Positions 20,189-63,884 are shown, numbered from the stretch's first letter. The stretch: DNA of 64,000 nucleotides from Paraspadella gotoi (GCA_051294375.1 CM119266.1:15661429-15725428); one strand, 5' to 3'. Made by a program: numbers and translations. The notes: generated by a model from the sequence alone, not told the origin.

Positions 20189-20260
<72 letters not shown>

Positions 20261-26200: not shown

Positions 26201-26677
26201 GTCGACCACCAACGGAGAGATCGTTGCCTACCGTTTGTACAAGAATGACTTGGAGGTTGTCTGCGAAGGACTCTTCTTCCATTGCGTCGTCGAGAATCTC
26301 CAATTCTACACCGAATATCGATTTCGGGTCGAGTCGTGTACGACCGTCGGATGTGTCAGGTCAATCAACGCCTACCGATCGACCGCCGAGGCCGAGCCAG
26401 AGGTGCTGGGGCCGCCCGAACTGTCGCCAATCCGTGCCGGCATCAAGATCCGCTGGCGGCCGCCGGAACGGCCTTATTCCAATCCGATCTCGCTCGTCTA
26501 TGAGGCGGAGAGGCGGGCCATCTTCGACGCAACGGTGGGACCCGACATTGTCGGCGAATCCAAGCGTATCTACAGGGGAATCATGACTTACTACGAGGAT
26601 CACGACCCGAGTCTTCAACCTTACTCCAGGTACAGAGTGTCTTCTTATTTATCATAATAGATCACATAGAAAATATA

Positions 26678-26732
<55 letters not shown>

Positions 26733-27910: not shown

Positions 27911-27997
<87 letters not shown>

Positions 27998-28054
27998 GGA
28001 AAGCACATATATTTGTTAAATCCCATATATAGCCTTTGACCATATTATATTTCA

Positions 28055-28093
<39 letters not shown>

Positions 28094-28532: not shown

Positions 28533-29193
28533 TTTCCGTCTTTGCTAGTTTTTCGCGTAAAATAAAAACCAAAATAAACAATGCAACGAAATATACTTTA
28601 ACTTTTATTATCTATTTATTTGTAAATCAATCCGGAACGTCCGTAAATTTTATTTTACATTTTGCTTATGTTTGTCTTCAGTTTCGTGTCTTGCACTTTT
28701 TCGCTTTAAATGGATTTTACCACGTTTTCTAAATTTTTTACAACAGAAAATTTAAATAAAAAACTAAAATTATTACTAATGTCGATTATCGGTTTTCGAC
28801 GAAACTAAAAAAACAAAAAGTCTAATGCTAATCGAGCCGAGTCCTCTCAGTCTTCTTGATCATCATCTTCGTCATCATCATCATCGACATTAGCGAACTC
28901 TCTCGGGAGACGTTTTCGAGTCTTTGCCGCTAAAAACGCAATTTCTTCCTCCATAGATTTCGCGAGAAAAAAAAAATACTTTCGCTAAAATTTGACCTCT
29001 GTTCGTCTTTACAACCTCTTGACTTTTCTTATCCTTCTTAAACTTTCTATCTTCTTCAGTTCGTTTCCACCCTTAGTTTTAACTCATTTTTCCGAATTAC
29101 CGACGTTTCCCTCCATTTTCTTCTCTCCTCCCTGCTATGTCGTCATCTCCCCATTTCTCTTCTTTTCTCATCTCCCCTAAAATTGTGCACAAG

Positions 29194-29481
29194 ATGATTG
29201 TGTTTTCTCTTCGTCATCGTTATAGTCATCGTTGTCGTCGACTCCCCGCCATTTTGTTCATCTTGGCTCGAATCTCCTTTGCCGGTTCGACGTCCGATAG
29301 CGTCATCGTCCGGCCGCTCGCGCCGGAAACGACGTCCGGCGACCCTTCCGTCATATCGAACATGGAAGAGACGTCGTCGAGATGGAAACTCGAATCGTCG
29401 ACGAAGGTTAAAATTAATTGAATACTGCATGGACGTCTAGACCTTTTAAATCTAATCTCTTTTTAAATCTAATCTTTTTAA

Positions 29482-29516
<35 letters not shown>

Positions 29517-31098
29517 CTCCGGTCCCCTAACTTATCATTTGATATTATCTTTCAAAATCAATACCAAACTCTTTTCCAGTGCATTGACATCGCTTCCCCC
29601 AAACTCTTCCCCCTCCCATTTCCACCACCTCCGCCAACCATCACTGAGACGCGCGCCTTCAGCGCCACCGACGGCGAAAGCGGAAGCAACGAAATTCACG
29701 TGAGCTTCGATTCGCCAGAAGCTGGAGGCGTCGACCGATTTGAAGTTCACCTCGACGAAGCGTTTGCGATGAACGTTGATTACACAGAATCCGGGTGAGA
29801 AAATTTTGTTTACAATGAATTAAAGCGTCTATTCTGCATTTGATCCCCACCCCCCAAAATCCACAGAACCCACCGCGCAGTCCTCGCCCACCTAACCCCC
29901 AACACTTTCTACTACGTCCTCGTTCGCGCTTGCAACGCCGGTGGTTGCGGCACCTTCGATATTGCCACGAAGCGTTCGGCACCGGAAGTGTCGCGCGGGC
30001 TGCGAGCGCCGGTCGTATTCATTGGTGGAGGCGGATATCCTGTGGTGATGATGTTCCAACCGCTGAAGATATATCAAAGATTAAAAGATGTGGTCTTAAG
30101 GTACCATGGATATAATTTTTCATTACTCTCCCACTCTCTTCCTTTAATTAATTGCAGTATATTCTAATTTCCTTAAACAAAAAAAAAAAAAGAATAAGAG
30201 CAACAGTACGTAAAAGAACTATTCCCTCTTCTTTCTCCGCAGTCTCTTCAAAGCCACGTCCACCCACCCACGAGGGCGCCACCTGCGCGATGTCTTCTTT
30301 TCAAGTTTTCTCGTCGACGACGCCGGATTTCGTCCGCCATCTGTTGTCGACGATTCGCCGTCGGGCAAAGCCGTCTATTTTGTCAAATCGCGTTTTCCCG
30401 AGGAGATTGGCGCTCCGGAGGCGTGGTCTAATGACAGCGTTGTTGATTTTACCTTGTCGGATGACTGTAGCCGTAAGTTTCAGGAGGATAAATTGATAAC
30501 GTTCTTCGAAGTAATTCACTTTTAATTTCTAATTCTATTATTTTTTTTATTATTATTATTATTTATTGATTTATTGATTTATTTATCGTTTTATTTTTAG
30601 TGCTCTTAGTCTTGCTCAATGCTTTTTTACCGTTTAAAGCGTCAAATTGTTCGTTCTTCTATTTCAGAAAAAAAAATATGATTATAACGTCTATTTTGCT
30701 GCCATCCTTTTAGACGCGTCACGTGGCTGCGCCTCTTTCTTGTTGCCTCCTTCGACGCCCCGTTCGGTAGCGGCGCCCAGAGTTTTTGGCGCCACCGCCG
30801 ACGCTTTCAACGTCAATTGGAATTCGCCGGATGAACCTCACGGCGTGGTCGTCTCATTCGGCGTCTTAGTCTTTTCCGTCGCGAGAGGAAAAGAGAAAGA
30901 GGTGGAGTTTCGCCCAGATCAATTCTCATCCACCATCAAAGGTTAATTGATGGATTTGATTAATTTGATTGTTTCGATCGATTTGATTTAAATGATTAAA
31001 TTTGTTTATTAATTGACGGATTAATGGCTTTGATTTTGATTTCGTAGATAAATTTAATCGATTAATTAACTCATTGGTCGACTGATAAATTTATTTTG

Positions 31099-31131
<33 letters not shown>

Positions 31132-34100
31132 TGTTCCCACTTTAAATTTTTCAGGCCTTTACCCCGCGACCGTCTACGAGATTCGTCTGCGTGTTTGCGT
31201 AGACCTGGCGGAGGCGAAAGTCGTTTGCGTCGTGAGCGAGAAGGGGGCGACGGTGAGGAGAAATGGCTAATATTTACGACTAAATACTCTGCCTTAAGTT
31301 AAGGCTTAACTCGCAGAGTTGAGTTTTTAAAAAAAAATCCTGTTAGCAGTTATAAACGCTCTTTCTCGCACTAAGGTAACCACAGCCGAATCCCTCCCCA
31401 CCGGTCAACCCCCTCCGGTCGTTCTCGCCGCCACGCCCACTTCCGTTCGACTGATGTGGCGCCCCCCCTCTAAACCCAAAGGGCGTCTCGTTGGCTACGT
31501 GGTCTTCCGCGACAATCTCCTCATGCACGAGACGAGCGACGTCGCGACAGAGAAATCGACGATCCTTGATGAAGGATTGGAGCCCTTTTCCGAACACTCT
31601 TATCGCGTGGCGGCGCTCAACGCAGAGGCTAAGCGCCGTAAGGATAAGGGCGCCATTAGTGACTCGGTTGTGGTCAGAACCGCGCCGGGGGCGCCGCTAG
31701 AAGTCGAGGCACCTTTGGTTAGACCGTTGGGTGAGATATAAATTGATTTTAGAACGAATTTGATATATTTATTCGTTTTTAATTTTTTTATTCGTATCAT
31801 TTTCTTTCTTTTCTTTTTCCCTGTGTTTTTTTCTACTTCTCTTTTTTCTAAGCTTTTTTTTTTTACCTTTCTATATATCTTAAGACTCCACGAGCGTGTC
31901 GGTGGCCTGGAACCCCGATCAGTCTTCCAGTTCAGACCTGGTTCGCGGCCACATCGAAGCCCGGCGAGTCCAGATAAGCTTAAAAGACAACGGGCATCTT
32001 ATCAGCGACGTTTTGTGCCCAAATTTTCGTCAACCTGAGGTCGAGTTCAGAGGGCTGTTGCCATACACAGAGTATGCAGTAAGAATTGCAGTGCAAAATG
32101 AGGTGAGTTGTTGGATATTTAAAATTTGAATCAACAAAATTTGAAGAGAGATTTAACAACGATTTTTATTTCATAGTGAAACGGACATGTTTCGACTCAC
32201 ATACGAGTCTTCTTCAGCGCCAATTCAATTTGTGAATTTGAAGAGAATTTTGTGCATAAAGAAAGAGAGAGAGAGAGAGACAGAGCAAAGTTTCCAACAC
32301 AGAGTTTGAGAAAAAGGATAGTGTTCAGTTTTTTATTTTCTCTCTTCAAACTTTGTTCTAAATCAAATCACAACGAAACAGAAAGGAAAAAAACACAATT
32401 TGAATCAAATAATTTAAAAAAAAAAAAATTTTAGTAATAGTATTTTCGATTCCAGGTCGCTCAAAAGTTCAGCGCTGAATCCTTTGTCCGCACAAAAATG
32501 GCTTCTCCTTCAGATCTGCAGCCTTTAAAGGTTGAAACTTTGGACGGCGGAACGGAGGCGCTTGTCTCGTGGGAGGAACCAGAAAATCCGAGAGGTCAGA
32601 TTAAGAGGTCAAAGGTCAACGGAGATAAAAATCCATGGATTATACTAGTTATTGCTAATTTGTTAATTTATAGTTTTTTGCTACTTTATTCTAAATTCGT
32701 AGGGGAAATCAGCGAGTATCGCCTCTTTCTCACGCCCCCATCCGGCGTCGTTTATGCCGTCTATTCCGGGCTTCGCCAACTCACCATGGTTTCCGACCTG
32801 CGTCCGGCCACCTCCTACGACCTCAGCCTCCGCGCCTGCACTTCCGGTGGTTGCTCCGACGGCGACGTCTATTCCTTCGAGACTCGTTCGGCGGCGCCGG
32901 ACGGCCTTTTGGCGCCCCAGTTGGACGAACAGCCAAGATGGAATCGAGTGGCTGTGATGTGGACTCCGCCCTCGATTCCAAACGGAGAAGTTGTCCTCTT
33001 CCGACTCTTAAAGAGTCTTGGAATCGGTCGACAACGTCGGGAGGAGGTTTCGGCGGATTCGTCTGGTTGTTTGCCATCACCTGTTCTCTTATGGAGACTC
33101 GAGAGATAAAGGTAAACAAGCAAATCTCTTGCAAATTTTCCTGTGTTTTCAATTTACCGTTATTTTAAATATTTTTCTAACTTACTTACTTTTCAAATTT
33201 GATACTTAGGATCGCTACGTATTCGTTGACACCGATGTTCAACCCGCGATGGTCTATGCCTACCAAGTAGTCGTTCACAACGCCGACGAATCTTCTCGTA
33301 GTCCGTGCCTTGTGGTGACAACGCCGGATTCGGTTCCAGTAGGACTCGACGCGCCGGAAGTACGTATTCTCAGCTCCTATGAAGTGGAAGTCAAGTGGCT
33401 TCCGCCTCGAAGCGCCAATGGCCGCGTACTACACTATGAACTCCAGCGCAACTCGTATATTCCTTTGTATTTTGACGGCGCCACCCCTCGGTTTTTTGTC
33501 GATACAAATTTGATTCCGTGGACCCAGTACTCTTACCGGCTACGCGCCTGCAATGCCGCCGGATGCGTCAACAGCGGTGCAACTTTCACCCAGACCCCGA
33601 TGGCTGCTCCGGACAAAGTCCCATCTCCGGAAATAGTCGACATCACGTCAGAATCTTTCTCTGTTAAATGGACGCCGACGGAAATTCCTAATGGCATCGT
33701 AGATCAATATCAGTTGCTTGTTGATGGAAATTCGGTCTTTGTCGGAAGCAGCTTAAATGCCACAGTCAAAAATCTAGAACCTTACGTGGTCTACGAACTC
33801 GCTATCCAGGCTTGCACCGACCGTGGGCGCCGGTGCTCAAAGGGGCCCTCAATTAAGACACAAACATCCGGAGCGGCTCCGCGAGAACTCGATGCACCGT
33901 TCCTTAACGTCCTTGGGCCTTTGGCGATTCAAGTTTCATGGTCTCCCCCGCGGCGACCCAATGGACGCTTACTTCAGTATAAACTCTATCGGGATAACCA
34001 ACAAACTCCAATTTTCTCTGGATCTGATCTCAGCTACACGGAGAGAGGCCTGGATCCCGGCGTGGAATACAAATACTGGGTTTCATGTTCCAACGGCGTC

Positions 34101-36258
34101 CCCCCATCGGCTAAAAGCCGCTCCAGCGCCACCACTACATTCGCCTCTGCTCCCGAGGGTCAAGAGCCTCCAGAATTGAGGCCACTGTCGTCATCAACTG
34201 TAAAAGCCTCGTGGAAAGAGCCGAAACTCTCCAACGGCGTCGTCATGACTTATCGTTTGTTCCGGGACGATCGTCTCGTGGTCTGCGAAGGCTTGGTCCT
34301 CAAATGCGTCGTTGACGATCTCAAACCTTTCTCCAACTATCGCTTCCGGGTTCAGTCCTGTACCTCCAGAGGTTGTGTACAATCCTCAAACGCCTACGTC
34401 CGGTCTTTAGAGGCCCCGCCTGATGGCATGGACAAGCCTGTGCTCGTTGCCTCAAGCACAGGGGTCAGGATTCGGTGGAAACTTCCGGCGACACCCAACG
34501 CACCACCACAGTCTCTTTTCTATTGCGTCGAAAGATCAGAAGTGCTTTCTTCTACGGATGACGCCCCTCTCCATTCTCGCCTTATCTATCGCGGTTCCTT
34601 TACTTTTCACGAAGACGCTGCCTTGCCGCCATTCTCTCTCTTTGCCTATCGCGTCATCGTCGAAAACTCTGCAGGCAACGGGACTTCCGGTTGGCAGAAA
34701 ATTCGAACAGCATCAAAGGCACCATCATCGCTCGAGCCTCCACGCGTGGTCCAGGTCACTGTCGGCCAAGTGGTCGTCGAGCTGCTACCACCCAATATGC
34801 CGAACGGTGACATAGTCGCCTCCAATGTTCTCGTCAATGGAGCACGCCGGGGCACTGCGGCCGGGCAACATCTCGTCGTCGTGGATGGTCTCGTTCCTAA
34901 CTCACGCTACGAAATCGCTGCTGAATCTTGCACTTCAGGCGGTTGCGTTCTCAGTTCTCCGACAGTCATAGTGGCTCAGTCCACGCCACCTCAAGGACTC
35001 GTAAATCCGACTGTCGAAATCGTCTCGCCCACTTCAGTCCTTGTCAAATGGCGCCCGCCTCGCAGCGTCAATGGCGTTTTGCAAAGATTCGAACTGCGAG
35101 TCGGCACCGTTTGTCCGCAGCCTCCACAGCCGGTCTCGTCGTCTTGCTCTGCCCCGGATCCGACGCTTCGCTACATAGGAAACCGCCTCTCAACGATCCT
35201 CTCTGATTTGACGCCATACTCTGCCTACTCTCTGTTTATTCGCGTCCACAACACCGACGCCGCCTCTGACTCGGAATCGGTTCCGTTCCGAACGCCGCCG
35301 GCGCCGCCAGCGGCTGTCAAGGCACCTTCGGTGGACCCGGGGCTAACTAAAGACGCAGTTGACGTACAGTGGAAGAACAGCTTCCTACTAAATGATAGGT
35401 TTGATTATTTCATTGGTTCTTATATTACTATTTTTATACGTAATTATAAGTTATAATTGTGTTTTATGCCTTGTTTTTTAAGTGGTTTTTTTTTCTTTTC
35501 TCTTTTTCGTTTCTCCCATATCCTTTCTCTTTTCAGCATATGAAACGCTCTTTCTATCCTTTCCATTTTAAAGTACATTTTTTTTTTAACCGTTCTCCTT
35601 ATCCTCAACCAGGTTGAAACGCTACTCGCTCTACGTTAACGGGGATGAAGTGTTTAAAGGTCTCGTCACAACTTTCGTCCTAAAAGTAGAAGGCGACGCC
35701 GACGACATCCTAGAAATTCGCGCCTCCGTCGAGACAGAGCGGCATCCCGTCGCCGTGACCACGCCCTCTGTCTTTTACGACGTCGCCCTTCGTCGCGTCC
35801 TCTTCGCCGCCCCGAAGACGACTAATTTCTATCGTCAAGCTTGGTTCTTCGTCGTCGTTATCGTCGCTGCTTTCGCCGTCGTCGTCGTCATTGTCGTCGT
35901 CGTAGTTCGACGATGTAAAACTAAAAGAGGGAAATCAACTCCGAGATCAGTTGCGAGCTCGAGAACGAAACTTCCGCTGCCGCCGAGGAAAAGACAGAGG
36001 ACCCTGGCGGACGATCCTGTCGGAGACGCGACTTTTCTTGAAGCTTTTGAAGGCGAGCGGCGGAAAGAGAAGGTCCGGCCCGGGAGACCAAAACCTAGGG
36101 CGAACCGAGCGAACGCCCAGAAGAGAGAGAGAGACGGTGGCGCCCATAACCCTGGCGCTCAGAAGAAGCAGATATATCTTCGAGAAAGCGCCTCGTACAA
36201 ACCCAGAAAACGACGGGATAGAAGGCGGAATGTGCAGGATGCGATAACTCATATTTAA
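29194..36258 (+). CDS. USH2A: Usherin-like protein B, tandem paralog of A, ~1724 aa, 12 exons, one apparent 1-nt frameshift
   Basis: Exons 29194-29406, 29580-29794, 29867-30100, 30243-30472, 30714-30941, 31155-31252, 31376-31730, 31885-32102, 32456-32594, 32703-33111, 33210-35398, 35613-36258. Collinear with A (SPCLVVTTPDS, PLYFD, APRELDAPFLNV, VVCEGL, CPQPPQPVSSSC, FYRQAWF-TM, terminal ITHI). The frame breaks near 33088-33092. Confidence 0.82.
32184..32217 (-). ncRNA. Minimal type I hammerhead ribozyme motif (Penelope-like pLTR remnant)
   Basis: Minus strand reads gcg CTGAAGA A GACTC gtatgt GAGTC GAAA C AT GTC cgt: intact core, 5-bp stem II and palindromic ACATGT stem III. The unit is bracketed by aatttgaagaga direct repeats. 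Confidence 0.7.
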
Positions 36259-36517
36259 ACTGTGACAAGTGCAGTATTTTTGAAAACATGATCCCCTGTT
36301 AATCGGCTTTACATGGTAGATTCACTCGTTAGTAAATACATTTTATATTACGTTTAAAGAAATAAAAAATGTTTATTTTTATACTAATATACTTTTAAAC
36401 CCATATACCCGTTAGTTGTGCACCAAGTAAGAGAGAAAATTCAAACCAGAGAAAGAAAAAAAGAGAGATAATGATGATAAGGAAAACAACATTGAAGCAG
36501 AAATAAATGAATGTTAT

Positions 36518-48075: not shown

Positions 48076-48627
48076 CATGAAGTGGAGGAAAAAAAAGGGA
48101 AAAAAAAAAGAAGAAATGTTTTATTCTGTAATCGAGATTCGAGACTTAACTCTTTGGTTGATTCGCTCCAACAAAATCTTGGTCCATTTTTCTTCCGAAT
48201 CCCTGATTTCCTGAATCAGGATCAAATCGTATCGCAGCAAAATCTGTGGAAAATCGGAGAAAGAACTTTTATTGCTCCCTCGTTCTGACTCTCTCTCACC
48301 AGTTCTTCGTCTCCCCTTCTCAGAACGGCGGTTATTAGTATTATTATATTTATCTTTCAGAAAATTAACTGCCAGAAAAGCCAAAAATTTGATTTGCTAA
48401 CAGCTGAGGATGACTAAATAACCGACCTTTTTGAAAAATACTATGTATATCTCGCGCAATTTTCTAAATTAAAGATATACTATTTTCAGAAGAGCGATTT
48501 AGTTGCTTTAAAAAATCAATCAGATTCGATCGCGAAATTCGCAGAGATCTTTTATCGCGGTCGAATTTGTTTGTTCTTCGATAACCCGGAATAACAATCC
48601 CGGTACTTTTCTCTTTCTCTCTCTCTC

Positions 48628-48658
<31 letters not shown>

Positions 48659-50045
48659 TGAAAAATAATGAGACCTTCGAGCGGATTTACTGGTGATTTT
48701 TGTTCCAACTGTGAAGGGCGACCCCGGACAACAAACGCACCGTTAAAAAGCATTATCGACCGATTTAGTCAAAACACCTACCTTTCCTACATACTTTTTT
48801 AACCTGTTAAATTATCAAGTAAGCTTTTTTTGGGGACTATATCTAACTATATCAAATTATATATAGTTTGATCATGACTTGGTATTTGTTATGCATTTTA
48901 ATCTTGATCCTCTCATTGCAGAGAATGATCATAATCAAAAACAAAAAAAAGTGTAAAACTCTTAAGTCTTAACCCACAACTGATGCAAGCTTTTTTTTTT
49001 CATAAATGCTCCATTGGCTATTCATGCAAAACGAATACCGATTTTGCTTTGAACAGAACTGCGGATTCACTTCACTAATTGAGAAAAAATCCCTTTATTC
49101 GACTCCGACGAAATTATCTTGGGAGATTGCGTGAAAGACTCGTAAATTGTGTTTAAAATGGCAAAAAATTTCGTTCTCTACTAATATGTGATGTGATTAT
49201 ATGTGAAAATGTGAGATGTGATGTGATGTGTAATCTATAGTCGGTTTAGAAGCTTTACCGTAATGTAGAACCAGTTATAACTTGATTTATTTAAAACCCC
49301 AACGAACAAAAAACACAATTTTTCTTTTTAAATAATGAACCAATTTAAAACACAAACGAAGCTTTTAAACGAACAAATAAATCTCTGCTATAAAACGAAG
49401 CTCGAAATTCGAGTCAGAGATTCCACGTCGCCTCCATACACCGACGTGGCGTTGCGGCGGACTCGGACGTGACAGGCCGTGACAAATCGACAATAGCGCA
49501 CTTTATTTGACTTTCCCTTTTACGAATGTTTGCTCGAGTCACTCTCTCGGTCTTCGCAGGGGGGCGCTTCGTTCCGAACTCGATATCGGGCATTCAGTAA
49601 AATAAAAAAAAAAAGCTCTTTTGAATTGAACGATCAAATAAATGCGGAGTTGAATAAAATATAATCAAGCCTTTTTTTTTTCTATTTTAAAGTCGGTTCC
49701 CGAAACCGCAGACGCTGCCGGATAAAGCGGCAGCGGCGAAGGCCATCGCGGCTGCAGAGGCCGCAGCCGCGGCTCTGTTCCGCCGACCGCAGATTGTCGT
49801 GAGGCTGGAAGCGGACCACGAGAACGATAAGCACAACCGAGGAAAACTTAATGGAAACCGAAAGACAAAATGGGATTTTGCTGTCGACGGCGTCGCTTAG
49901 GTTCGCCCAGTTTGGAGTAAATGAGACTTTTATTGGTTTGAAAGTGTAAAAAGTTAAAGCCAATATTTGTCAATTCTGAATGTCTTAGGAGATCTAAGAT
50001 TTGGTTAATGAGTAGCACATTTCTTAATGGCTTTTTTCGTGATGT

Positions 50046-50132
<87 letters not shown>

Positions 50133-50529
50133 ATAGACAGACGAACCGACTGAGAGACAAAGTAGAACTTACTTTGATCAAAATTTCGGCGACGTCTGGT
50201 TGTTTCATTTTCTTTTTGCCAAAAATTTGAATATTGAAAGCGGCGAATTTTAAAGGACGATTTGATTTGAAGTTTTGCTCGAAGTCAGAATAGGTTGACG
50301 CGTTGAACGAATCGAAATCACTGAATGTCAGGAATGTGGTTCTTAGTGGTACATGCTTATTTAAATCTTAAAATAATTTGTCTTTCGTGTCTTTTTTTAA
50401 TTAACTTGTTACTGGTTGCTATGAATCCTTCATCCTTTATCTTCACCTTTCTGCAGCACAGTTTGTCGCACCAAGAAAGACCATCACCGCCAAAACGATG
50501 ATGGAATCTCGGTTCCACCCAAAACTCAT
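42406..50529 (-). CDS. DNASE1: Deoxyribonuclease I family protein, secreted, 10 exons
   Basis: Phase-consistent exons 50529-50447 (signal MSFGWNRDSIIVLAVMVFLGATNCAA), 50320-50173 (LKFAAFNIQIFGKKKM), 48243-48151 (RYDLILIQEIRD), 47710-47625 (SPRLGRSASKEQYAFFYR), 47428-47187 (DDG...FEREPFVVRF), 46559-46431 (CHASPGNAVAEIDAL), 46349-46280 (GDLNAGCNY), 46222-46154 (WLIPDNADTT..HCPYDR), 43093-42991, 42471-42406 (SDHYPIEL, TGA). Both catalytic His are present. Confidence 0.93.
42517..42750. repeat. (TAG)n-derived low-complexity tract with a ~50-bp internal duplication; (CCT)n run at 42924-42988
   Basis: tagtagtagtagaaatagtagttgtagtgttacatagtagtggattatagtt occurs twice. Confidence 0.85.
43941..44082. 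repeat. ~145-bp interspersed repeat, copy 3
   Basis: Nearly identical to 2265-2407. Confidence 0.85.
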
Positions 50530-51825: not shown

Positions 51826-54800
51826 TCAATCGTGTCTGTCATGATGCAAATATGGGATGACGAAGAGCATAATCATGGAAGAGATGATGGTCATGAAGAG
51901 ATAGACCCACAGCAGGAGTTTGTCGATCACGTCGGCGACCAACTGCCACTCGGCAAGAACCATCTTCTGCACTTTCTCCGACATGAGAACGGCGCCGGCG
52001 ACCACGACGGCCGAAGGATCCGGCGTCGGGAGTTCGTGTAGGAGGGGCACTTGATCCCTGGGGCCATTCAAAATTCTTTTTATATAAGGTTTTTTTTATT
52101 CACGGATTGTGAAGAGTAATTCATTGTCTTGGGTTGCATATAATAACGTTCTCTTGATGATATATGTTGTGCTTAATAGAAATAAAAAGTCGAAGTACAG
52201 TAGTAACCGATTCCGTATCTCTCCTTAATTGTTAAATCGATCGATAAAGATGCAACTAATAAACACATTTTTTTTCCCTCTCATTAATAATCTATAATAA
52301 TAATAATTAATTCTGCCTCACCTGGACCGCAAAAGGTTGCCGCCGACGCCACCTCCGCCGCCACCGAGTCCGCCTTGACTCGATCTCCGCGGACGCCAAA
52401 CGTCTTCGCATCGATCGTCGAGGTCCTCCACGCGTCGTGTCCGCCTGACGCCACCGTTGAGCGCCAGGCGACGCCCGGTGCCGGCGGAGGAAGCCAAGGG
52501 GGCGTGGCTCGATCGCGGCGTCGACGTGGGCGAGTCGACGTCCGGAGTGTCTTCCGTCACGCTGACCTCGATGCTAGGAGGATTGGCTGGAGTTGTGGAA
52601 TTGAGTGGAGTGGAGTGTTGATTGGGAAGATGAATCGAGAATGTGCGCGAGAACTTTTTTACGAGAACCTTTTCACTCACCCCTTCCCTGCTGCGTTCCG
52701 TTTTCTCCGCGTGGATTTTCCATCGGCGTCAGAGGAAGAACCAGAGCGTCTCGCGGCAGCTTCGGAGAATCTGCTTTAATAGTTTTAGTTACGTAAGATT
52801 TGTCATTTGGCGATCGGCCGCAGCTTCGTTTACCATCGTCGAACACCAAACGTCTCGTCGGGTAAGGGCTCTCTCCCCCGACCGGCGTCCCCATAGACGG
52901 CGCGTTGGTGAAGGAGGTAGTGGCGCTCCCCACCTCGTCGAGGGATGTGTATTGGGTTTCCATGCAGACCAACTGAGAAAAGGAGAGGTTTGTTTTGGGT
53001 AAATTTAAAAAAGAGTGGAGAAAGAGGAAGTTAGAAAAAGAGAAATAGGTAAGTTTGACGTAATAATTACGAGTCGGATTATCAAGTCAATCGTAGATTG
53101 TGAAACTAAGTAGCGGCATTAGTAGCGCGGCGGACACACAGAGGCTCGAATTATAAGCACTACCCTGCAAAATTCCCTAACTCCTCATTCGCCTTATGAT
53201 ATTGACGACAAGAAAAGAGTAAAATCGGAAGTAAAGGAGAGAATGACGAGGGAAGGATTTGTGACAATGACAGTAATTATACGGAAAAGACGACCAACCC
53301 TTCGAACGTAGTCGAGCGTGATTCTGCGCAGCCACTTTGGCGCACGTTGGTTCTTGTATCCTCGGTGGTTGAGGTTGATGAGAAAGACGGCGAGGACGAC
53401 GGAAAGCGACGTCATCGCCATCACCGTCGTCAGGTACATGCCTGTCCAGAAAATAAATGAGGGAAGAAAGACGCGAGTGGTTTAATAATATTAATAATAA
53501 TAATAATAATATTGGTAAGTAAAGAAGTCTTGCGCATTCGAAATAACCTCGACTGTCTTAGAAAGTGGAAAGACAACAGCAGACATGTTTGGGGAAAAGG
53601 GGGGGGACTATGGGGAATAACGGGGATTCGAAAAAAAAATAGTCGGACGAGAAAAAAAAAACGAGGACAAAGGTGAATAAAGACGTGAGATCAGAGACGA
53701 AGTTGCGAAGACGGATTTCGGATGAGGTCATTCGTGGAAGCTTAACTCAAAGCTCAACATTTCTCTCTCTATCCGCGACATCCACGTCTTCTTTTTTTTC
53801 TATTTAATTATTGTCTTGTCGTTTGCGTATGTCATTTTGTAATTAATATGCATTGTACAATTAGCCACAGCCGATGAAATTTAAATGCTAATGTATACAG
53901 CGTTAAAATAATCTATCATGATCATAGATTATGGTACTCAAATATCTTTTGTCAAAAATGATTTTTTCTGAGGGTACTAGCCTAATTAAAAATACTATAT
54001 TACTATAGTCTATATAGAGCAAAATAATTTTTTTGGAAATCTTAAAATTTTTTGATGGATTCTGATAGAGCATACAAAGTTAAACAAAAAATATAATTAC
54101 AGTTTTTCAAAATTCTTACGTTTTCTAAGTGAAAATATAAAAAAACTGATAAAATCATCGAAAGATAATGATGATGATTATTATTTTTTACGGTTTTTAT
54201 TATTTTTGACACACTTATCATAAAAATATTTAAAAAAGAATTATACTTTGGCCTTTCCTATCTATAAATAAATATTAAAAAATTAATTACTAGGGTATAG
54301 AGTAGAGTTCCGATAACCGTTAATATTTTAGGAAATTCGATTAACCGTTAAAACTAACATTTTTAACGGTTAACCGTTAAGATCGGTTAATTTTATAATT
54401 TTATTAAGATTTGAAACAAACTAAAGTATTTAATGATATTTTCTCTTTGTGTATAGACTTTCGATTTCGTTGTTTATGGGCATTAGGAGAAAAACAATTT
54501 TTATTTGTTTTGACAACGAATTTTAGTGACAATTTGACAGACATGTTTCGACTCTGTATGAAGGCTCTAAAAATACAGAGTCGAAACATGTCTGTCAAAT
54601 TGTCACTAAAATTCGTTGTCAAAACAAATAAAAATTGTTTTTCTCCTAATGATATTTTCTCTTTAACTCTGGCTCCTGAATGCGCTGATAAAGACTTGAA
54701 ACAGAGTCGAAACATGTCTGTTTTTTATGTCAAATAAAATTGTAGTTGTTACAAAACAAATATTTTTGCTAATCTCATAACACAACTTAACGAAAGGATA

Positions 54801-57179
54801 CCATCAAATTCTCATTCTATATTTTGTTTTCTCTTTCTCTCTTTTGCTTTCTCTTTTTCTTTCTCTACTTCTTCCTCATTATTTTTGTAGTTGTTAGGTT
54901 CTTAAACGCTTGTTTTCTGTTGTTAGTCTTTCATAAACTATGACCAATGGTCATTGACCATAAATATAAATAAAAATTTTTATTTATTGATAGACTGGTT
55001 GATTTATCGATTGATCAAAAGATTTATTGATTAATAAATATATTTTTCAGTTTAATTAAAAAGTATATAATCATTATTGAAGGATAGTTTTAGTTAATTT
55101 TTAAATTTTTTAAAATAATTTTTTTTATTTGTTTTTTATTAATTTTTTTCATTCATTTGGTTTTATTTCATTTGCTTCTTTGATCGTTTTAAAGAAGGAA
55201 AGAAAAAGAGAGAAAAAGTAAAATAAGAGGGATTATTTCATTTTAGCTATATACGCATTTTAGCTATATTGCATGGAAGGGCAAAAAAAAGGAAAAAGGT
55301 AAAAGTAAAGGCCCTAAAGGGCGAAAAAAGGAGAAAAAAGATAGGGGGAAAGAAAAAGGGGAAAAGTGAGAGAGAAAAAGAAAGGAACAATCGGAGATAA
55401 ATAAAGAGGAAGAAAGAATAAGAGAGAGATTAGGATAGAAAAAAAAAATAAAGGAAAAAAGCAGGAAAAAAGTGGAGAAGAGAGAGATGGGTAAAAATAT
55501 GGTAAGAAGGGGAGAGGAGAATAAGAGAGAACAGGAAATTTTTTTTTTTTTTAATTTAAAGATTTCATGCCAAAAAATGAAAAAAATCACATTTGAAAAT
55601 TAACCGAATTTAACCGTTAAAATAAATATATTAACGGTTAAGTTAAAATTATTTTTAACCGTTAATAACCGTTAACAGTTAACGGTTATCGGAACACTAG
55701 AATAGAGCCATATCACAAATTTTTGTCCATTGAAAGTATTCTTAAAAATGTCTAAATATTCGTTTGAGCATATACTCACTCTAAATTTTTGACTCACCCC
55801 ATTGAGGTGGGCTACCCCAAGTACAATACATTATAAAATTACATGAGAAATCTCACTTATTAAGGGAATAGATTCCGACGTTGAGGGAACTTCGCCGGCG
55901 ATTAGAAGCATAAAGACGGAATAAGCGAGGAAAACCGAGACGCCTAGCGTCACCTGGTGGGAATTAAAAAATTTAAAAAAAAACGTACTAAAAAAAGTTT
56001 ACAGATAAAGTGAAAAATAAATATCAAGGAAAGGGCGAAAATAGTGACAAGAAAAAAAAAAGAAAAAAAAATAGAAGCCCAGGAAGAAAAAAACGCTATT
56101 TCAGTTTTTTTTCTTTAATACAATTTTTTTAAAGCAACCTTTAATCGGACCGTAAACTTTACTAAAACTTCGCCCTAAACGCCACTTCGAAAAAAGAGTG
56201 ATTTGGCCAACGACAAACGAAAGAATATTAATCAAATGCTTGACATTTTTAGCGAGCAAATCGTTACGAGATCGATATAAATCAAATCGTTATGACGTTG
56301 TTATTGTCAGCTCAATTCGCTTCGCTACGGACGGTCTTACTCTTCTCTCTTCCTTCGTATCTCTCTCTTCTCTCCTCTCATCTCTCTCTCTCTCTCTCAT
56401 TCTCTCCTCTCCTCTCTACTCTCTCTTTCTTTTATCTTCTGTCTGTGTCTCTCTTGGAAATAGCGGAAAACGACATTACCATCTTGACGAGAGACGCGGA
56501 AACGATCAATCGCAAGACCAGAAAACAGTTCAAATCTCCTATTCTACTCTTTCTACCCTTTTTCCGCTGTTCCCAAACTACTTAACAAGTTGAAATAGTT
56601 GAATAACTTAATTAGATATGAAGCGAGCGTTTTGGCGCTATTTACCTTTTCTCCCATTTGCGAAGGAAGAGCGAAAGTGAGTAAAGTCAGGATGGAGAGA
56701 AGAACGCAAGGAACGACTACGTTATACCTTTTATGGATTCGTTCCCGGATGTTCCGAGGATAAATGAGCGTGAAATAAATTCATAAACAAAGAGAATTTG
56801 TCTCGATTTATTTGGTCGCTGTCTCAAAATGTGGAAAAAGTTCGCTTAATGTACGTAAGAAAGCGTTCATACTAGGCGAGAAAAGGGGCATGCCGCATGC
56901 GTATTGTGCTTAATTTTAAAATGTTCTCATTAGTTATTATTTCTATTCGGTAGAACTAACTAATTTTACAAAAAATATTTTAAAAATTTAGACTTTTTTT
57001 GCCTTCATTTGAGTTTCTTATTACACGCATTTAAAAATAGAATTTCGTTCCGATTTTGTCTTTTTGACATATCTTGACTTTTTACATATAAAGCGTTTAA
57101 AGTCATTCCCAGTTAATATTTATTAAAAAAATTATACTCTCTCTTTCTCTCTCTTTCTTTCTCTCTCCTCTCTCTCTCT

Positions 57180-57249
<70 letters not shown>

Positions 57250-60200
57250 CGTTTTCATTTTGATCAAGCTTGATATGAACTCTGGGCAATGTGATATAGT
57301 ACTCATTACAACTAAAAAAAATAGAATAAGAGAGGGAAAGCTTAAGTTAAAAAATCATACTTTTTAAAATGACTTGATTTAACTAAAATTAATTAATTAC
57401 CTTATCGCCAGAATCGGATGGAAGAGCAAAAGTGAGGATTGTAAGAATGGACAAGAGCATGCAAGGGATGATCACATTGTACCTGAGACGATTGTGTCAA
57501 GAATCAGGCGTAAAAACAAACGATCGAGGTTAGAGTCAGCATGCTACGTAGTGGTTAATATATTAATTTTACTTTAAATTTCTATAAAATTAGGTTAAAT
57601 TGGGATAGTTTGATAAACAATAACAGACATTTTTTTGTGTATGTGAACAATGACTTACATGTAGTACAAGGAGAGTCGCTTAATCCTCACGGTGTAGATC
57701 ATTTCGGGAAAAGGTTCCGGCCAGGTGTCAAAAAACACCGTCCGATTCTTCATGGTAAAGTTAAGGAGCTTCCATTCGCTGTTGGCTACCAATACCGAGG
57801 TATCGACGGGGTGATCCGAGATCTGCAGGTCGACCACCCACCCGTTGTAGCTCCACGATCCCAGCCTGTTGACGGAAGGTGGTTCAGGGACTCTTTGATT
57901 TTGCTGAACGAACGTGAAACTATTTTTGTGAGGATAAAAAAGCTTCTATCATCAATTCAGGGAAAAAAAATATGGCGAAGTGAAAGAATGAACGAAGGAA
58001 AGAAATCGGTTTGAAATGGAAGGGGAAAATGTGGTGAAATGAGGTGAAAATTCAGCGGAAAGAAAATAAAAAGAAGTAGATTTTACTTTTATGTGATTGA
58101 AAGGCACCAATTTGACTCTTGTTATCTTTAAAATACAAAATAAAGAAAATAAGAGAAATGCAAAGTTAATGGAGGATAAAATACAAAATAAAAGGACCAA
58201 GGACGATAAAAGCGCAACATTAATGGACTAAATGATAACAAAAGAAAAGGAAAACGACTAAAGAGATAATGACTAGGACGAGGACGTCGGGGGCATCGAC
58301 CGCTCGACTGACCTGATGTGACAGGTTTGTCTGTCGAAGGGAAAGAAGCTGATGTCGATATCGCACCTCGTCTGTAGACGAACTGGCACCGGCCAATGCA
58401 CCTGTCCAAAGTTGAGTTTTTACGCTTGAAAAGAAGAACTAATATTGCGAAAGTAATGTTTTTATAGCCGCAATGTTTAATATTTTTGACGAGCGTGTGC
58501 ATGTGGAAGAATCTGTGGAAGAATCACCCTCTCCTACTATAAGCCGTTATAGAAATTTTTTCGCTTCGTGTTTTAAGGAAAAAATTTAAAAAAATACCGA
58601 CAAACAACGACGACAACAACAACAACGAAAAACTGCGTAGTTTCTCTTGAATTTCCACTCGATTCAAGTTGAGCAAAACCGCTGTTTTTGTCCTTCAAGT
58701 TCAAAACGACATTTTCGTCCTTTCGACCCGCGAATTTCCGAGCGAGATTCCCTCGGCGCTGCTCTCTATCGGCGGTCGCATGATCACCGACATCGTTATC
58801 ACTGTCGTCCTGTCACTGATATCCTCATCGCCGATGTCGTTATCACCTCGGTCTTGACCCTAAAGTTTTGACGTCGTCGTGGTCGTCTTCGTCGTCGATT
58901 TCGTCGTCGTTTTCATTGTCGTTCTTGGACATTCTAAAGGAATCTTAGATCAAAAAAAAAAAAAAAAAGCGGAAAAAAACAGAGCTCAGGCCTCGTCTCG
59001 ATAATATTCATATTGAAACATAATTATAAAGGGAATCACTGGTTTGATTATGACTTAAACATTTAACAAAATCAAATCCAAGGGTTTGAGAAAGCAAATG
59101 TATAAATTATAATTCAAAAATATTTTAAAACAGAGAGAGAGAAAGCGAGAGAGAGAGAGAGAAAGAGTATAATAGAAAGAAAAATATTGGAATTATGAAT
59201 AAATAATAGATCTATGTATACAGATTCCATAATTTGATCACTGAAGGAAGATTTCGGAGAATCTTTTTTCCCTTTCTTCCTCGAGTTTAAGCCCTTCAGG
59301 GTGTTGTTGTCGTTGTGGTTGTCGTTGTTGTTGTTTCTGGATTGTAGCGAATGGTTGCTTCTCAATGAGCGGTTCAAAGAAGGTGGAGCGGAGGACCAGC
59401 CCCGGGCTGACGAGGAATGATTAGGTTTTGGTTGAGGAATGAGTACGTAACGAGGCAGAAAAAGGCGGGAAAAGACGGAGGAAAGGCGGGAAAAAGGTGG
59501 GGAAAAGGCGGAAAAAGGTGGGGAAAAGGCGGGAAAAGTGGGGAAAAGGTGGGGAAAAGGCGGGAAAAGAGCGGAGAAAGGCGGGAAAAGATGGAAAAGG
59601 CGGAAAAAGGTGGGGAAAAGGGCGGATAAAGAAGCGGGAAAGGCGGAAAAAGGTGGGAAAAAGGCGGGAAAAGGTGAGTTAACGAGGAAAAAGGCGGGGA
59701 AACGCAGGAATAGGCGGCGAAGGCCGAGATTCGTCAAGGGCCTCCAACAATTTTTTTCGTGATAAACTGAAGGAAGTTAAAATTATAAGAAAATTGTGAT
59801 GGAAGAGAAAAGTTCAGCTGTATTTTTGCTGAAAAGTTGAAAATGTGATAAGTAAATGAAAAGGGACGAAGAAATTGTAAAAAAGTTAAGCGAAAGGGAG
59901 TGCACCCTTCCCTCGCCTTTAAAGGTCACGGAGAGGAAAGAGTCGCTGCGTGGAATCCTTGAGGCGAACGTAAAACAGATTATCCACTTCCGAGACCTCG
60001 AGCGTTTCTTGAATGCGTCATTCTACATTATGTACTGAGATTTTTTTCAGCTTCCTTGACCTGCGCGCTTTTCCTTTGCTTGCTTAACCCTGAGTGTGCC
60101 TTTTTCTTCGGCTTTATAAGCCTGATTATCCTTTTCTGAGATTCTCTTCCGTTTTTCGTCATTTTCTTTAGACAAGCAACATTATTAATCACTTTGCATC

Positions 60201-63200
60201 GGCTTCTTCATGTCGTTATTTTAATAAACGCGATCCTAATCTTTAATCCATTAGCCGCGCGTATTTCTTGCCTCTCCCATTTTCTTGTCTTTCTTATTTC
60301 TTCCTTATTCTTTTATCTTCTTTTCGCAACTTCTCTACTTTTTCAAATCCATCCAATCTTCTTCATCGGTCATCTTTTCCTGTTCACTTCAACGCTCTCC
60401 CCTTTTCCGCCTCCATCCGTAATGAGCTTCTTAATTTTTCTCTTCATTTTTCTTCTCACGCTTCGCGCATCGATTATCTCTTCTGTTCCTATTTTTTTCT
60501 CCTTTACCCTCCACCCTTTTCGTCGTCCATCTTTACCTCGTTTGTTTCTCTTTTTGTCTTTTTCTCCTTCTAATTGTTATTACTCGGTTCCGTGTCTTTC
60601 CCAATGGATCACATTTTTTTTCAGCCACCCACGCTGTACTTTTTTAATACTCTTTATCTTAGGTTTTTTAACTTATCTGAACTAAGTTTTCAATTCTATG
60701 AATACAAAACTATAACATTAAAAAGTTGTGGCAAATTTGATTTGTGTGTCACTCTCTATGTGTGCAAAAGCTTATTATTTTCTATGCCTCGATGGTCGCG
60801 CGTTCGAGGCCGACTGAGGAACTGGCTTTAACATGAAGTAAGGATGTCTAAATCTCGCGACGACGTCAATGTCGAAAAAATGACGAATCAACAAAATAAC
60901 AAAATAATAATAATATTGATTAATGATTATAATACTAACAACATATCTTTCACTATCTTTCAATTTGAACCTTTTTATCTCTTTGCCATCTTCTGTCCTT
61001 GCACGCCAGAAGCCATCTCCCCGACTGTTCCCCACTTGCAACCAGGTCTCTCATCTTACCCGTTTGTTCGCTTCCACCTGCACACCAGGTGCCTTAACCT
61101 CTTGCACCCTGCGTCGACGCCACCTGCGTTTTGAAAAGGCGCGAGAAAGAGGGACCCTCCTCTCTAACCTTCGACCTTAGGTTTGTTCAACGCAGTCAAG
61201 TGACGTTTTTTATGCACCGAGAAACAAATATTTGTTTACTTTTGTTTGTCATGTATTACTTCTCTCCCTATACTATACGTCCATAATTTCCTTTAATAAT
61301 TCTTTTTTAATATTTTTTTCGTGCCATTGTTTAAAAATGAAGATATATCACGGTATGTTTGTTTTGATGAGTTTGACTACTTGAAAAAGCGGCGACAGAA
61401 ACAGAGAAAACGACTCAAACGGACTAAGATGTCGCCTAAGAATCTTAGTAAGAATCTTACTAAGATGGCGCCTACAAAGGAACCCCATAAAACGCTGCAT
61501 GCAGCGGAATAAAAAAATGTCATGGACAAGTTCTTGTCAGGTGGATGAAACGGAGCTTGAGAGAGCGTCTGGTAAGGCGTTTGAGGCCGCGGCGTCTCTG
61601 TCTCTGTCTCGTCTCTCTTTTTTTATTCATTTCCAGGTTTCACGATCTCTCTCTCCCTTCCTTTCACTCCCCCTCCTCCCTCTCTCCCCTTCTCTCTCAC
61701 TTAGTCGTCTGGTTGTCGTCGCGTCGGGTTTTCCTCGCTCGACTGATGAGGATGTAATTGTTTTTGCTTTTCGTTTAATTTCAGTTTTATGTTAGTTAAA
61801 TTAGATTAATTGTTAGAGTTAGAGTTATATTTAGAGTTCCCCTCCAGGTTGTAATGTGTAAAAGTTCTGTAGAATCGTTAGAAAGGTTAGAAAGGTTAAA
61901 AATTCTCGTTTCTCCTATTTATTAAAATAAAAGCACTTAATTATATTTTTTTTTCCATGGCCTTGATGAAGCTTTCATTTCTAGTAATCCATATAATTTT
62001 AAAAAAGTTTTATCGTTCTTAAAGTTTAAACTTGAAAGTTGTTTAGCTTCTACTAACTCTAGCGACTGACTTCATTTTTCAAAGTTTTTTCCTCCGTTTA
62101 GTTCTTGCGACAAATCGCTCTCGACGGCAAAGTTTCATTAATTTCGTCGCGAGTTCATTCGCGTTTTATTCCGTCGCCATTTTGAAAGTTTACGCTCACT
62201 TTAACAACTTTTTTTTTTTGAGCTTGAATCACTTCACTTCATCCTCGTATCACCAATCGGGAAAGCGAATCACAGAGATTTTTACCTAAACTTACTGTAA
62301 ACGAAACTTTTTTTATTATCATCTATTTAATAACGCCCGGTCTAGATATTTTCTTTCTAATTTTTAAAACTCACCCTTTCTTTTTTCTCTCTCTTCAACT
62401 TAACTCACCTCTCCGCTGTCGTTAATTATAACGTTCCCACCCTCGTATCCGGTTATTAATCCGGAGAAGCTTTCGTCCGCGCTGATTAAAAAAAAAAAAT
62501 TATAAATGGAATTAATTCAAATTCAATTAGCAAAAGCTTTAATTGTAGTAAATTCTCGTTTAAGAAGTGATATAAATTATCTTAATAAAAAATACGGCCG
62601 ACGTCAGTTTATAATTTCGGTTCTGACGTCAATTTTCAAGACCTCGAAAGCAGACATGGAAATTTTATGAATAGATTAAACTTTAAAGTCGTTTTGATTA
62701 AAAAAAATATTAATGAACTAAACCTGTGATAATTGTCTGACAAAGCATACTGCTTACATACATGTAAATAATTGAAAACTTTACAACAATAGTTCATACG
62801 ATAGTACTTAAAAAGTTTTTACGAGTTAATATGCAATTTCCCTCACAGAAGATATTTAATCTATCAACATTGTTGAGCGAGCGATAATTTCCGATGACTC
62901 GTAATATGAAGGGTTCGGTCACAAGCCACACTAACTTGTTGTATATAAAGATGTCCGGAAGCCAGATCTTTCCGGCGGGAACATAGATTTCCTTGATGTT
63001 GTTTTCCGATTTGTTCCACTTGAGGCGCTCGTCGGTCCAATACTTAAGAGAATGACAAAAGGGAAACGTCAGGGGGGTGAGGGGAGGGACCGAAGCGGGG
63101 AGGATGACCCGATGTCAAGATGACAAAAAACTGGGATTAAAAAGAAAGAGAGAAAGAGAGAGAGAGATTGGAGAATGGTTTTCTCCTAAATCAGACAAGA

Positions 63201-63884
63201 TAATTGAAATATGACATCTTGCCTCGGAAACTCAATGCGTTTGTTACCAACTGCGTCTTGAACAGATCCTTTCCCCCCCCCAAAAAAAAAAATAATGTCA
63301 CGGAGTCGGAAACTGAAATGATGATCAACGATGCGAGAGACTTGGGCGTGTGAAGGAAATATATTTTCTCAAATTGAGGAAGAATGGACACCGCGTGTCA
63401 AAAGCAGACGGACGAAAAAATGGGGAAGGGGAAGAGAGGAGGGGGGGAAGATTATCGACTTACCATATCGATCCAGACGTTGGTCGTCATGTATTGATTT
63501 CGTTCGTCCTGTTAGATAATGAATAAATTAATAAATTAATAAATAATTAAATAGATAAATAAAAAAATAATAAAAAAATTAAAAAATTAGAAAAATATAA
63601 AATTTAAAAATTTAAAAAAATTAAAAAATTAAAAAATTAAAAAATTAAAAAATTAAAATATAAAAATAAATAAAAAATGAATGAATGAATGAATGAATGA
63701 ATGAATGAATGAATGAATGAATGAATGAATGAAGAGAAAAACCGTCTCACCAAGGAAACGATTTGGGTGAGCACAAGTCCAAACTTGACGGCGAGAGTGT
63801 CGGACGGATCGATCACCGGCCGCACCGACCGGATGTAATTGCCGAAGAGCCGTCGCTGCAGGGAGTGCTCGAAACCTTTGCCGC
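51826..63884 (-). CDS. Nicotinic acetylcholine receptor-like Cys-loop subunit, non-alpha (no vicinal Cys); first exon lies outside the window
   Basis: Exons 63884-63751 (YIRSVRPV), 63508-63464 (DERNQYMTTNVW), 63042-62936 (WTDERLKW..IWLPDIFIYN), 62481-62409 (NADESF), 58401-58313 (Cys loop CDIDISFFPFDRQTC), 57865-57659 (GSWSY, NSEW), 57482-57401 OR 56727-56646 (M1), 55953-55857 (M2 VTLGVSVFLAYSVFMLL), 53441-53299 (M3), 52972-52681, 52586-52322, 52057-51826 (EWQLVADVIDKL, M4). All phases agree. Confidence 0.93.
54303..55699. mobile_element. Non-autonomous hAT-like DNA transposon in the receptor M2-M3 intron
   Basis: TIRs tagagttccgataaccgttaa (54303-54323) and ttaacggttatcggaacacta (55679-55699), one mismatch; 8-bp TSD gtatagag / gaatagag (7/8); clustered subterminal taaccgtt/aacggtta motifs; no transposase ORF seen. 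Confidence 0.8.
54481..54718. mobile_element. Penelope-like pLTR remnant: perfect 79-bp inverted repeat plus tandem hammerhead motifs
   Basis: Arms 54481-54559 and 54573-54651 are exact reverse complements with a 13-nt loop. ATGAAGGCTCT..AGAGTCGAAACATGTC spans the centre; a second motif CTGATAAAGACTT..GAGTCGAAACATGTC lies at 54685-54718. Confidence 0.7.
56646..56727 (-). CDS. Receptor M1 exon, alternative b (YNVVVPCVLLSILTLLTFALPSQMGEK)
   Basis: 82 nt, AG..GTAAAT, phase 2 to 0, same length and phases as 57401-57482. Confidence 0.8.
57401..57482 (-). CDS. Receptor M1 exon, alternative a (YNVIIPCMLLSILTILTFALPSDSGDK)
   Basis: 82 nt, CAG..GTAATT, phase 2 to 0. Confidence 0.85.
59455..59705. 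repeat. G/A-rich minisatellite (ggcgg(g)aaaaaggtggggaaaa variants)
   Basis: About 20 degenerate 10-12 nt units in a receptor intron. Confidence 0.85.
63580..63732. repeat. (AAAAATT)n and (ATGA)n simple repeats
   Basis: Directly visible. Confidence 0.9.

What the first reader, a model, noticed from the sequence alone, without database searches (positions are those of the whole stretch)
56646..57482. Duplicated, apparently mutually exclusive M1 exons that swap the ion-selectivity rings of a Cys-loop receptor
Seen: two 82-nt exons with identical phases, 673 nt apart, 20/27 aa identical; 12 of the 20 conserved residues use different codons, which suggests both have been under purifying selection. 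Including both or neither shifts the frame. The helix differences are conservative, and the remaining differences cluster in the M1-M2 linker: P-S-D-S-G-D-K vs P-S-Q-M-G-E-K. Known: in nAChRs (alpha7 PADSGEK) the -1' and -4' acidic rings set conductance, Ca2+ permeability and rectification. The mutually exclusive exons I recall in insect alpha4/alpha6 are exon 3 and exon 8 (M2 region), not M1 alone. Inference: splicing switches pore properties (D-4'/D-1' vs Q-4'/E-1') while the ligand site stays the same.
Basis: partly seen in the sequence, partly recalled or inferred. Interest (0 to 1): 0.82.

Follow-up and report, generated by a model that had tools for sequence, protein, structure and literature searches.

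The report
Twin pore-entrance exons, nicotinic receptor subunit
An invertebrate acetylcholine-receptor-type gene carries two old, well-kept copies of the exon for its first membrane helix and inner pore mouth; RNA shows one copy spliced in alone, so the two are likely either-or alternatives predicted to fine-tune, not switch, which ions pass.

Summary
Observation confirmed. Two 82-nt AG/GT exons (57401-57482 = a, 56646-56727 = b, minus strand) lie 673 nt apart: 20 of 27 residues identical, 12 by synonymous codons; codon positions 2 and 3 match 26 and 9 of 27 (dN/dS about 0.12). Either exon gives an intact 587-residue frame; both or neither stop at once. One RNA-type contig splices exon a alone; exon b was not seen spliced, and no relative's DNA was found. 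The gene is a cation-type, non-alpha nAChR subunit whose nearest relative is a Seison protein. 'Swapping the selectivity rings' is overstated: -1' is acidic in both (Asp or Glu), and the charge lost in b is at the minor -4' ring. The oddity is Asp-1' in the spliced form (0 of 238 relatives). Mutually exclusive exons are known in insect alpha4/alpha6. This scan earlier noted loop C+M1 pairs in alpha7-type genes of other genomes, and two crustacean protein models show such a 65-residue unit. This 27-residue unit has other ends, so is likely an independent origin. New variant of a known kind; interest 0.45.

The parts
57401..57482 (-). Alternative exon a: helix M1 and M1-M2 linker ending P-S-D-S-G-D-K (Asp-4', Ser-3', Asp-1')
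   Evidence: AG/GT, open frame; spliced between exon 6 and exon 8 in contig 1 of run X1; Pfam PF02932 26.8 bits
56646..56727 (-). Alternative exon b: helix M1 and linker ending P-S-Q-M-G-E-K (Gln-4', Met-3', Glu-1'); pyrimidine-poor acceptor
   Evidence: AG/GT, open frame, selection signature; PF02932 22.2 bits; no spliced contig seen; acceptor 9 of 22 pyrimidines
57659..57865 (-). Constitutive upstream exon (E6): loop B, loop F, loop C without vicinal cysteines, pre-M1
   Evidence: Spliced in X1; best solved-structure match alpha7, E 6e-12
55857..55953 (-). Constitutive downstream exon (E8): pore helix M2 and M2-M3 loop
   Evidence: Spliced to exon a in X1; aligns to alpha7 240-270
58313..63884 (-). 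Upstream coding exons E1-E5 (63751-63884, 63464-63508, 62936-63042, 62409-62481, 58313-58401): extracellular domain with Cys-loop; the signal-peptide exon was not found in the window
   Evidence: Gene model, all AG/GT; E5-E6 joint and an E4 loose end in X1
51826..53441 (-). Downstream exons E9-E12 (53299-53441, 52681-52972, 52322-52586, 51826-52057): M3, cytoplasmic loop, M4, stop
   Evidence: Open frame to one stop at codon 588 with either M1 exon; E9 loose end in X1; E10-E12 predicted from sequence only
56166..56642 (-). Candidate RNA stem: +3 to +28 after the exon b donor (56642-56617) with 56192-56166; a weak lead only
   Evidence: -24.5 kcal/mol, 0 of 150 and 0 of 100 shuffles, but the best of 24 comparisons and formed in 1 of 7 folding contexts

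Best explanation
An old tandem duplication of the M1 exon gives this non-alpha nicotinic subunit two likely mutually exclusive forms, of which form a is seen spliced and form b is inferred, and the two are predicted to differ modestly in conductance, calcium fraction or rectification while both would stay cation-selective. Shown: two intact exons under purifying selection, frame logic that allows only one, and skipping of b in one contig. Inferred: b is included in some cells or stages (weak acceptor, so probably the minor, regulated choice); double inclusion and double skipping are cleared by nonsense-mediated decay, since both stop far upstream of the last junction; steric exclusion is unlikely (673-nt intron, 76 AG dinucleotides, nearest 76 nt before the acceptor). 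Each copy kept half of the family motif: a kept Asp-4'/Ser-3' and shortened Glu-1' to Asp; b kept Glu-1' and changed -4'/-3' to Gln/Met. Predicted direction: b has the ordinary filter and a slightly higher calcium fraction; a has an altered filter geometry. The effect is diluted if the subunit co-assembles with alpha subunits.
For: Selection signature and neutral simulations. Only 1 of 27 second-position changes, which bounds any neutral phase of b to under about 0.18 substitutions per site against dS about 1.8. Intact frames for both forms. Contig skipping b. Changes fall on both copies relative to the family: Asp-1' in 0 of 238, Gln-4' in 9 of 238, Met-3' in 2 of 238 aligned relatives. The -1' ring governs conductance and calcium entry (PMC2217203, PMC2233820). 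Less negative charge at -5'/-4' goes with higher calcium fraction in a fitted model of human receptors (PMC5447003). Tandem duplicated exons are nearly always mutually exclusive, and minor variants can be missed in cDNA, as for insect alpha6 exon 8c (PMC1919356).
Against: No spliced exon b in the one run laid (contigs drop rare forms, so this is weak). No relative with both exons was found. Net charge at -1' is unchanged. Neutralising -4' had no detectable effect in alpha7, and the nearest alpha-type relatives already have neutral Thr or Ser at -4'. I found no paper on a Glu-to-Asp change at -1'; an effect of side-chain length there is recalled, not checked. No robust docking/selector pairing.
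Confidence: 0.55

Rival explanations
1. Both exons are used, but what differs is assembly, gating or trafficking, not permeation. The four M1 helix changes and Ser/Met at -3' would alter subunit contacts or desensitisation, and the acidic swaps would be nearly silent.
For: 4 of 7 differences are in the helix. -1' is acidic in both. The -4' ring is minor. The Drosophila alpha4 alternative exon was reported to influence assembly efficiency (title of Lansdell and Millar 2000 in the reference list of PMC8505678).
Against: The helix changes are common residues in relatives (Ile, Leu, Val, Met), while the rarest changes (Asp-1', Met-3') sit in the pore-mouth linker.
Confidence: 0.25
2. Exon b was functional for most of its history but is now dormant or decaying, and the gene makes only form a.
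For: Only a is seen spliced. The b acceptor has 9 of 22 pyrimidines and no branch-like motif within 60 nt. b scores lower against Pfam (22.2 against 26.8 bits). A neutral phase of up to 0.1 substitutions per site is not excluded (P 0.25).
Against: Frame, AG and GT are intact. The spliced exon E5 has an equally weak acceptor (9 of 22). The single run is shallow (contig depth 7) and contigs drop minor forms. b, not a, carries the canonical Glu-1'.
Confidence: 0.15
3. One reading: splicing swaps the selectivity rings and gives two channels with sharply different ion selectivity.
For: Both acidic-ring positions differ between the exons; Asp-1' is absent from 238 relatives.
Against: Charge at -1' is kept; no proline insertion; M2, including Val-13', is on the shared exon. 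Charge reversal in alpha7 needs Glu-1'Ala plus Val-13'Thr plus a proline (PMC8011927).
Confidence: 0.05

Closest known systems
Insect nAChR alpha6 mutually exclusive exons 3a/3b and 8a/8b/8c (PMC1919356; PMC8505678 Table 1)
   Same: Tandem duplicated, frame-dependent alternative exons in a nicotinic subunit; one cluster (exon 8) changes the pore region; one variant dominates expression.
   Different: Exon 8 covers M2 and the M2-M3 loop (outer half of the pore) of an alpha7-like alpha subunit. Here the unit is M1 plus the cytoplasmic linker up to 0', in a non-alpha subunit of another clade.
Insect nAChR alpha4 exon 4/4'; Rdl exons 3 and 6; GluCl exon 3 (PMC12309072)
   Same: Alternative duplicated exons in Cys-loop receptor genes.
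   Different: All lie in the extracellular ligand-binding domain.
Loop C+M1 duplicated segment of arthropod alpha7-like subunits (barnacle KAF0300447.1, woodlouse KAL7640434.1; earlier scan notes e1-7495576, e1-8074734)
   Same: Two tandem versions of a segment that includes M1 and the -4' to 0' linker.
   Different: The unit is 65 residues, from before loop C to 4' of M2, and both copies keep acid-4' and Glu-1'. Here it is 27 residues with other ends at both sides, loop C is shared, and the linker acids differ: likely an independent duplication.
Seison nebaliae KAI3381993.1 (P0047)
   Same: Nearest protein found: sister in the tree (100/97), same cysteine-less loop C ending W-P-E-P-F-P-E, 20 of 27 and 18 of 27 identical to a and b.
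   Different: One M1 in the model, linker Asp-4'/Thr-3'/Glu-1'/Arg-0'. Its gene could not be read for a second exon.
Downstream docking-site/selector splicing (14-3-3xi, srp, Dscam exons 4 and 9; PMC4691838)
   Same: A site after the last variant can pair with an element just after exon b.
   Different: No significant partner after exon a for that site (96 of 1000 shuffles) and no conservation data.

Membership tests
Cys-loop (pentameric) receptor, nAChR group | PF02931 and PF02932 domains, Cys-x13-Cys loop, four helices | tested here: met
   Pfam hits for 6 of 6 exons of this gene scanned; Cys-loop and M1-M4 in the gene model; best structures alpha7 and other nAChRs
Cation-selective nAChR | Acidic -1', Gly-2', no -2' proline or PAR motif, hydrophobic 13' | tested here: met
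   G-D-K or G-E-K, Val-13'; by sequence only, no recording
nAChR alpha subunit | Vicinal cysteines (and tyrosines) in loop C | tested here: not met
   Thr-Trp in place of Cys-Cys and Phe at both flanking Tyr positions against alpha7; loop A Tyr, loop B Trp and loop D Trp are present
Mutually exclusive duplicated exons | Tandem homologous exons, same length and phase, intact splice sites | tested here: met
Mutually exclusive duplicated exons | Both or neither breaks the frame | tested here: met
   Immediate stops
Mutually exclusive duplicated exons | Transcripts with each variant alone | tested here: inconclusive
   a alone seen; b alone not seen in 1 run of contigs
Mutually exclusive duplicated exons | Pair conserved in related species | not testable with these tools
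   No genome held; 0 confirmed loci in 2 metagenome scans
Orthologue of the insect alpha6 exon 8 or arthropod loop C+M1 cluster | Same exon boundaries and subunit clade | tested here: not met
   27-residue against 65-residue unit; separate clade from alpha7-like rows
Docking-site/selector RNA pairing | One docking site pairs in competition with a selector for each variant, with covariation | tested here: inconclusive
   b side -24.5 kcal/mol; a side not above chance, 96 of 1000 shuffles and 25 of 82 natural tiles; 1 of 7 folding contexts; covariation untestable

The most novel reading that the evidence does not exclude
The gene uses splicing to exchange the selectivity-filter residues themselves: a form with an Asp-1' filter not seen in any relative examined, and a form with Glu-1' but no -4' ring, giving cells two calcium or rectification settings from one subunit under one ligand site. 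With the separately bounded loop C+M1 pairs in arthropod and worm alpha7-type genes, this would make the M1 exon a repeatedly and independently duplicated switch in nicotinic receptors.
Probability: 0.3. Interest if true: 0.7.

Novelty: new variant of a known kind. Interest (0 to 1): 0.45.

Why it matters
If both forms are made, this is a natural experiment on the two cytoplasmic charge rings of nicotinic receptors, so far studied by mutagenesis, and a natural Asp-1' filter. It would extend alternative exons in Cys-loop receptors from the ligand domain and M2 to the inner pore mouth, in a non-alpha subunit outside arthropods. It does not change the known logic of mutually exclusive splicing, and the physiological effect may be small.

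Tried and rejected
No whole genome is held. One run holds the stretch, guessed to be RNA; no holder is on record as RNA. Contigs were laid on 55800-58500 only, so other junctions are seen only as loose ends. Exon b is covered for just 23 nt by an unspliced piece; lack of cover is no evidence. Two metagenome scans found no locus (115 and 243 pattern matches, 0 confirmed). Three protein searches gave one close fragment (P0001, exon 6 only) and no protein with either linker. The ESM Atlas added only generic ligand-binding-domain clusters. A single-sequence fold of P0047 was unusable (pLDDT 37.5). Docking/selector model: I first read 56880-56858 as the selector for exon a, then dropped it as within chance; a second AU/GA-rich stem, 57333-57313 with 56555-56535 (0 of 60 shuffles), had probability 0 in the one folding context that held it. 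A distant branch point with steric exclusion was rejected (76 AGs in the intron). A remnant of a whole paralogous gene was rejected (no other tested exon duplicated). GA-rich tracts follow both exons, but 20 such tracts occur in the window. Literature searches found no paper on M1-containing alternative exons in nicotinic receptors; searches found nothing of use. The library lacks most subscription journals. No supplements were read.

Full report
Observation. On the minus strand, 57401-57482 (a) and 56646-56727 (b) are 82-nt exons with AG and GT ends and the same phases. They are 673 nt apart, 176 nt after the upstream exon and 692 nt before the downstream one. They share 20 of 27 residues, 12 through different codons. 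Identity at codon positions 1, 2, 3 is 20, 26, 9 of 27; Nei-Gojobori dN 0.22, dS about 1.8 (near saturation, so rough), Fisher p 2e-4. In neutral simulations 1 of 20000 at 0.5 substitutions per site, and 0 of 20000 at 0.8 and at 1.2, kept an open frame with 20 identities. Flanks are unrelated (19 and 20 of 60 nt). The duplication is old and both copies were selected for most of it. A short recent neutral phase of b cannot be excluded: P 0.25 at 0.1 and 0.05 at 0.175 substitutions per site.

The gene. Twelve coding exons with canonical sites run from 63884 to 51826 and give one open frame of 587 residues plus stop with either M1 exon; the signal-peptide exon was not found in the window. Both-included stops two codons into b; neither-included stops at the end of the extracellular domain. 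Of the 10 exon peptides tested (E1-E9), only a and b match each other. Six of six exons scanned hit PF02931 or PF02932. The best solved structures are alpha7 and other nicotinic subunits. Loop C has Thr-Trp for Cys-Cys and Phe for both tyrosines: a non-alpha subunit, which by established knowledge usually needs alpha partners. In a tree of 47 rows (hand-picked from 91, thinned from 183 long matches) form a is sister to Seison nebaliae KAI3381993.1 (100/97), which shares the cysteine-less loop C, and the pair joins a mollusc and a rotifer alpha-type subunit (100/99). The animal may therefore be a gnathiferan-related spiralian; this rests on one gene tree.

RNA. One run holds the stretch (guessed RNA, contigs only). 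Laid on 55800-58500, 3 records matched. A 1650-nt contig (depth 7) joins E5, E6, a and E8 at the predicted GT-AG sites and skips 1447 nt that include b; its loose ends read into E4 and E9. Two unspliced pieces cover 56705-57066 and 55997-56318. No joint into or out of b was seen. Form a is thus shown; form b is not, and contigs cannot show absence. In insect alpha6, exon 8c was likewise missing from silkworm cDNAs while intact (PMC1919356, passages). The b acceptor is pyrimidine-poor (9 of 22), as is that of the spliced exon E5.

What changes in the protein. Exon positions 23, 24, 26, 27 align to alpha7 234, 235, 237, 238, i.e. -4', -3', -1', 0'. Form a has Asp, Ser, Asp; form b has Gln, Met, Glu. 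Among 238 relatives with a complete linker (of 285 aligned, 288 held; partly redundant and picked by similarity) -1' is Glu in 226 and Asp in 0; -4' is Asp or Glu in 211 and Gln in 9; -3' is Ser in 209 and Met in 2. Each copy has kept half of the family motif, and the rarest residue is in the form that is expressed. The four helix changes are residues common in relatives. The -1' ring makes almost all the pore potential and sets conductance; the -4' ring contributes considerably less and its neutralisation in alpha7 had no detectable effect (PMC2217203, passages). Neutralising -1' abolishes calcium permeability (PMC2233820, passages), and charge reversal needs three changes (PMC8011927, passages). 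A fitted model of human receptors links less negative charge at -5'/-4' to a higher calcium fraction (PMC5447003, passages). Since -1' stays acidic and M2 is shared, I expect tuning, not switching. That a shorter Asp side chain at -1' changes conductance is recalled; one search for it was empty. Against a large -4' effect, the nearest alpha-type relatives carry Thr or Ser there.

How exclusion likely works. Steric exclusion is unlikely: the intron is long and has 76 AG dinucleotides, the nearest 76 nt before the b acceptor. Decay of the two frameshifted forms is the default inference. One stem stood out among 24 comparisons: +3 to +28 after the b donor with 56192-56166, -24.5 kcal/mol, 0 of 150 and 0 of 100 shuffles. 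It could mask the b donor or bring it near exon 8, as in downstream docking-site systems (PMC4691838, passages). But the candidate partner after exon a is within chance (96 of 1000 shuffles; 25 of 82 low-GC natural tiles), and the stem formed in 1 of 7 folding windows. It stays a lead.

Comparison with what is known. Insect alpha6 has exclusive exons 3 and 8 (M2 and M2-M3 loop) and alpha4 has exon 4 (PMC1919356, PMC8505678 Table 1, PMC12309072; passages). Searches (listings) found no paper on M1-containing pairs; the library omits most subscription journals. M1-containing pairs are not unique, though. Two of 293 fetched proteins, barnacle and woodlouse alpha7-like models, read through two tandem 65-residue loop C+M1 units, and earlier notes of this scan report such pairs in a springtail and a worm (unchecked AI notes). 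Those units begin before loop C, end four residues into M2, and in the two crustacean models keep acid-4' and Glu-1' in both copies. The 27-residue unit here has other ends in another subunit clade, so it is likely a separate duplication. No DNA of a relative was found to test conservation.

Verdict. A real, old, selected exon pair; exclusive splicing is likely, with one form shown. The pore effect is plausible, probably modest, and untested. New variant of a known kind; interest 0.45.

Noticed in passing
P0005 (KAF0300447.1) residues 88-222; P0011 (KAL7640434.1) residues 403-537: Barnacle and woodlouse alpha7-like protein models contain two tandem 65-residue loop C+M1 units read through: the trace of duplicated exons in crustaceans.
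   Followed up: partly
window 57659 joined to 55953 (minus): Skipping both M1 exons puts a stop right after the extracellular domain, which would give a soluble, AChBP-like fragment if it escaped decay.
   Followed up: no
window 56705-57066 and 55997-56318: The only unspliced pieces in run X1 both lie in the alternative-exon region (depth 3.6 and 5 against 7 for the spliced contig); could be slow splicing there or DNA in the run.
   Followed up: no
window 57659-57865; P0047: A cysteine-less loop C shared with a Seison subunit marks a small non-alpha clade nested among alpha-type spiralian subunits.
   Followed up: partly
P0001 (unnamed ENA fragment): 86% identical to the first 43 residues of exon 6, then unrelated: a close relative that may have an extra intron inside this exon.
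   Followed up: no
window 55857-55953 (minus): M2 has Gly at 20' and Glu at 21' where alpha7 has Glu at 20'.
   Followed up: no
window about 20200-36300 (plus): Long fibronectin-type-III repeat reading frames, apparently two related blocks each ending in a hydrophobic segment; Pfam fn3 for 33213-35453. Usherin-like is a recalled label.
   Followed up: partly
window 14101-15530 (plus): Exons that look like a family-19 chitinase or lysozyme (recalled motif); Pfam found nothing for 15045-15527.
   Followed up: partly
window about 48100-50300 (minus): Exons that look like DNase I just downstream of the receptor gene (recalled motifs); Pfam found nothing for 50008-50367.
   Followed up: partly
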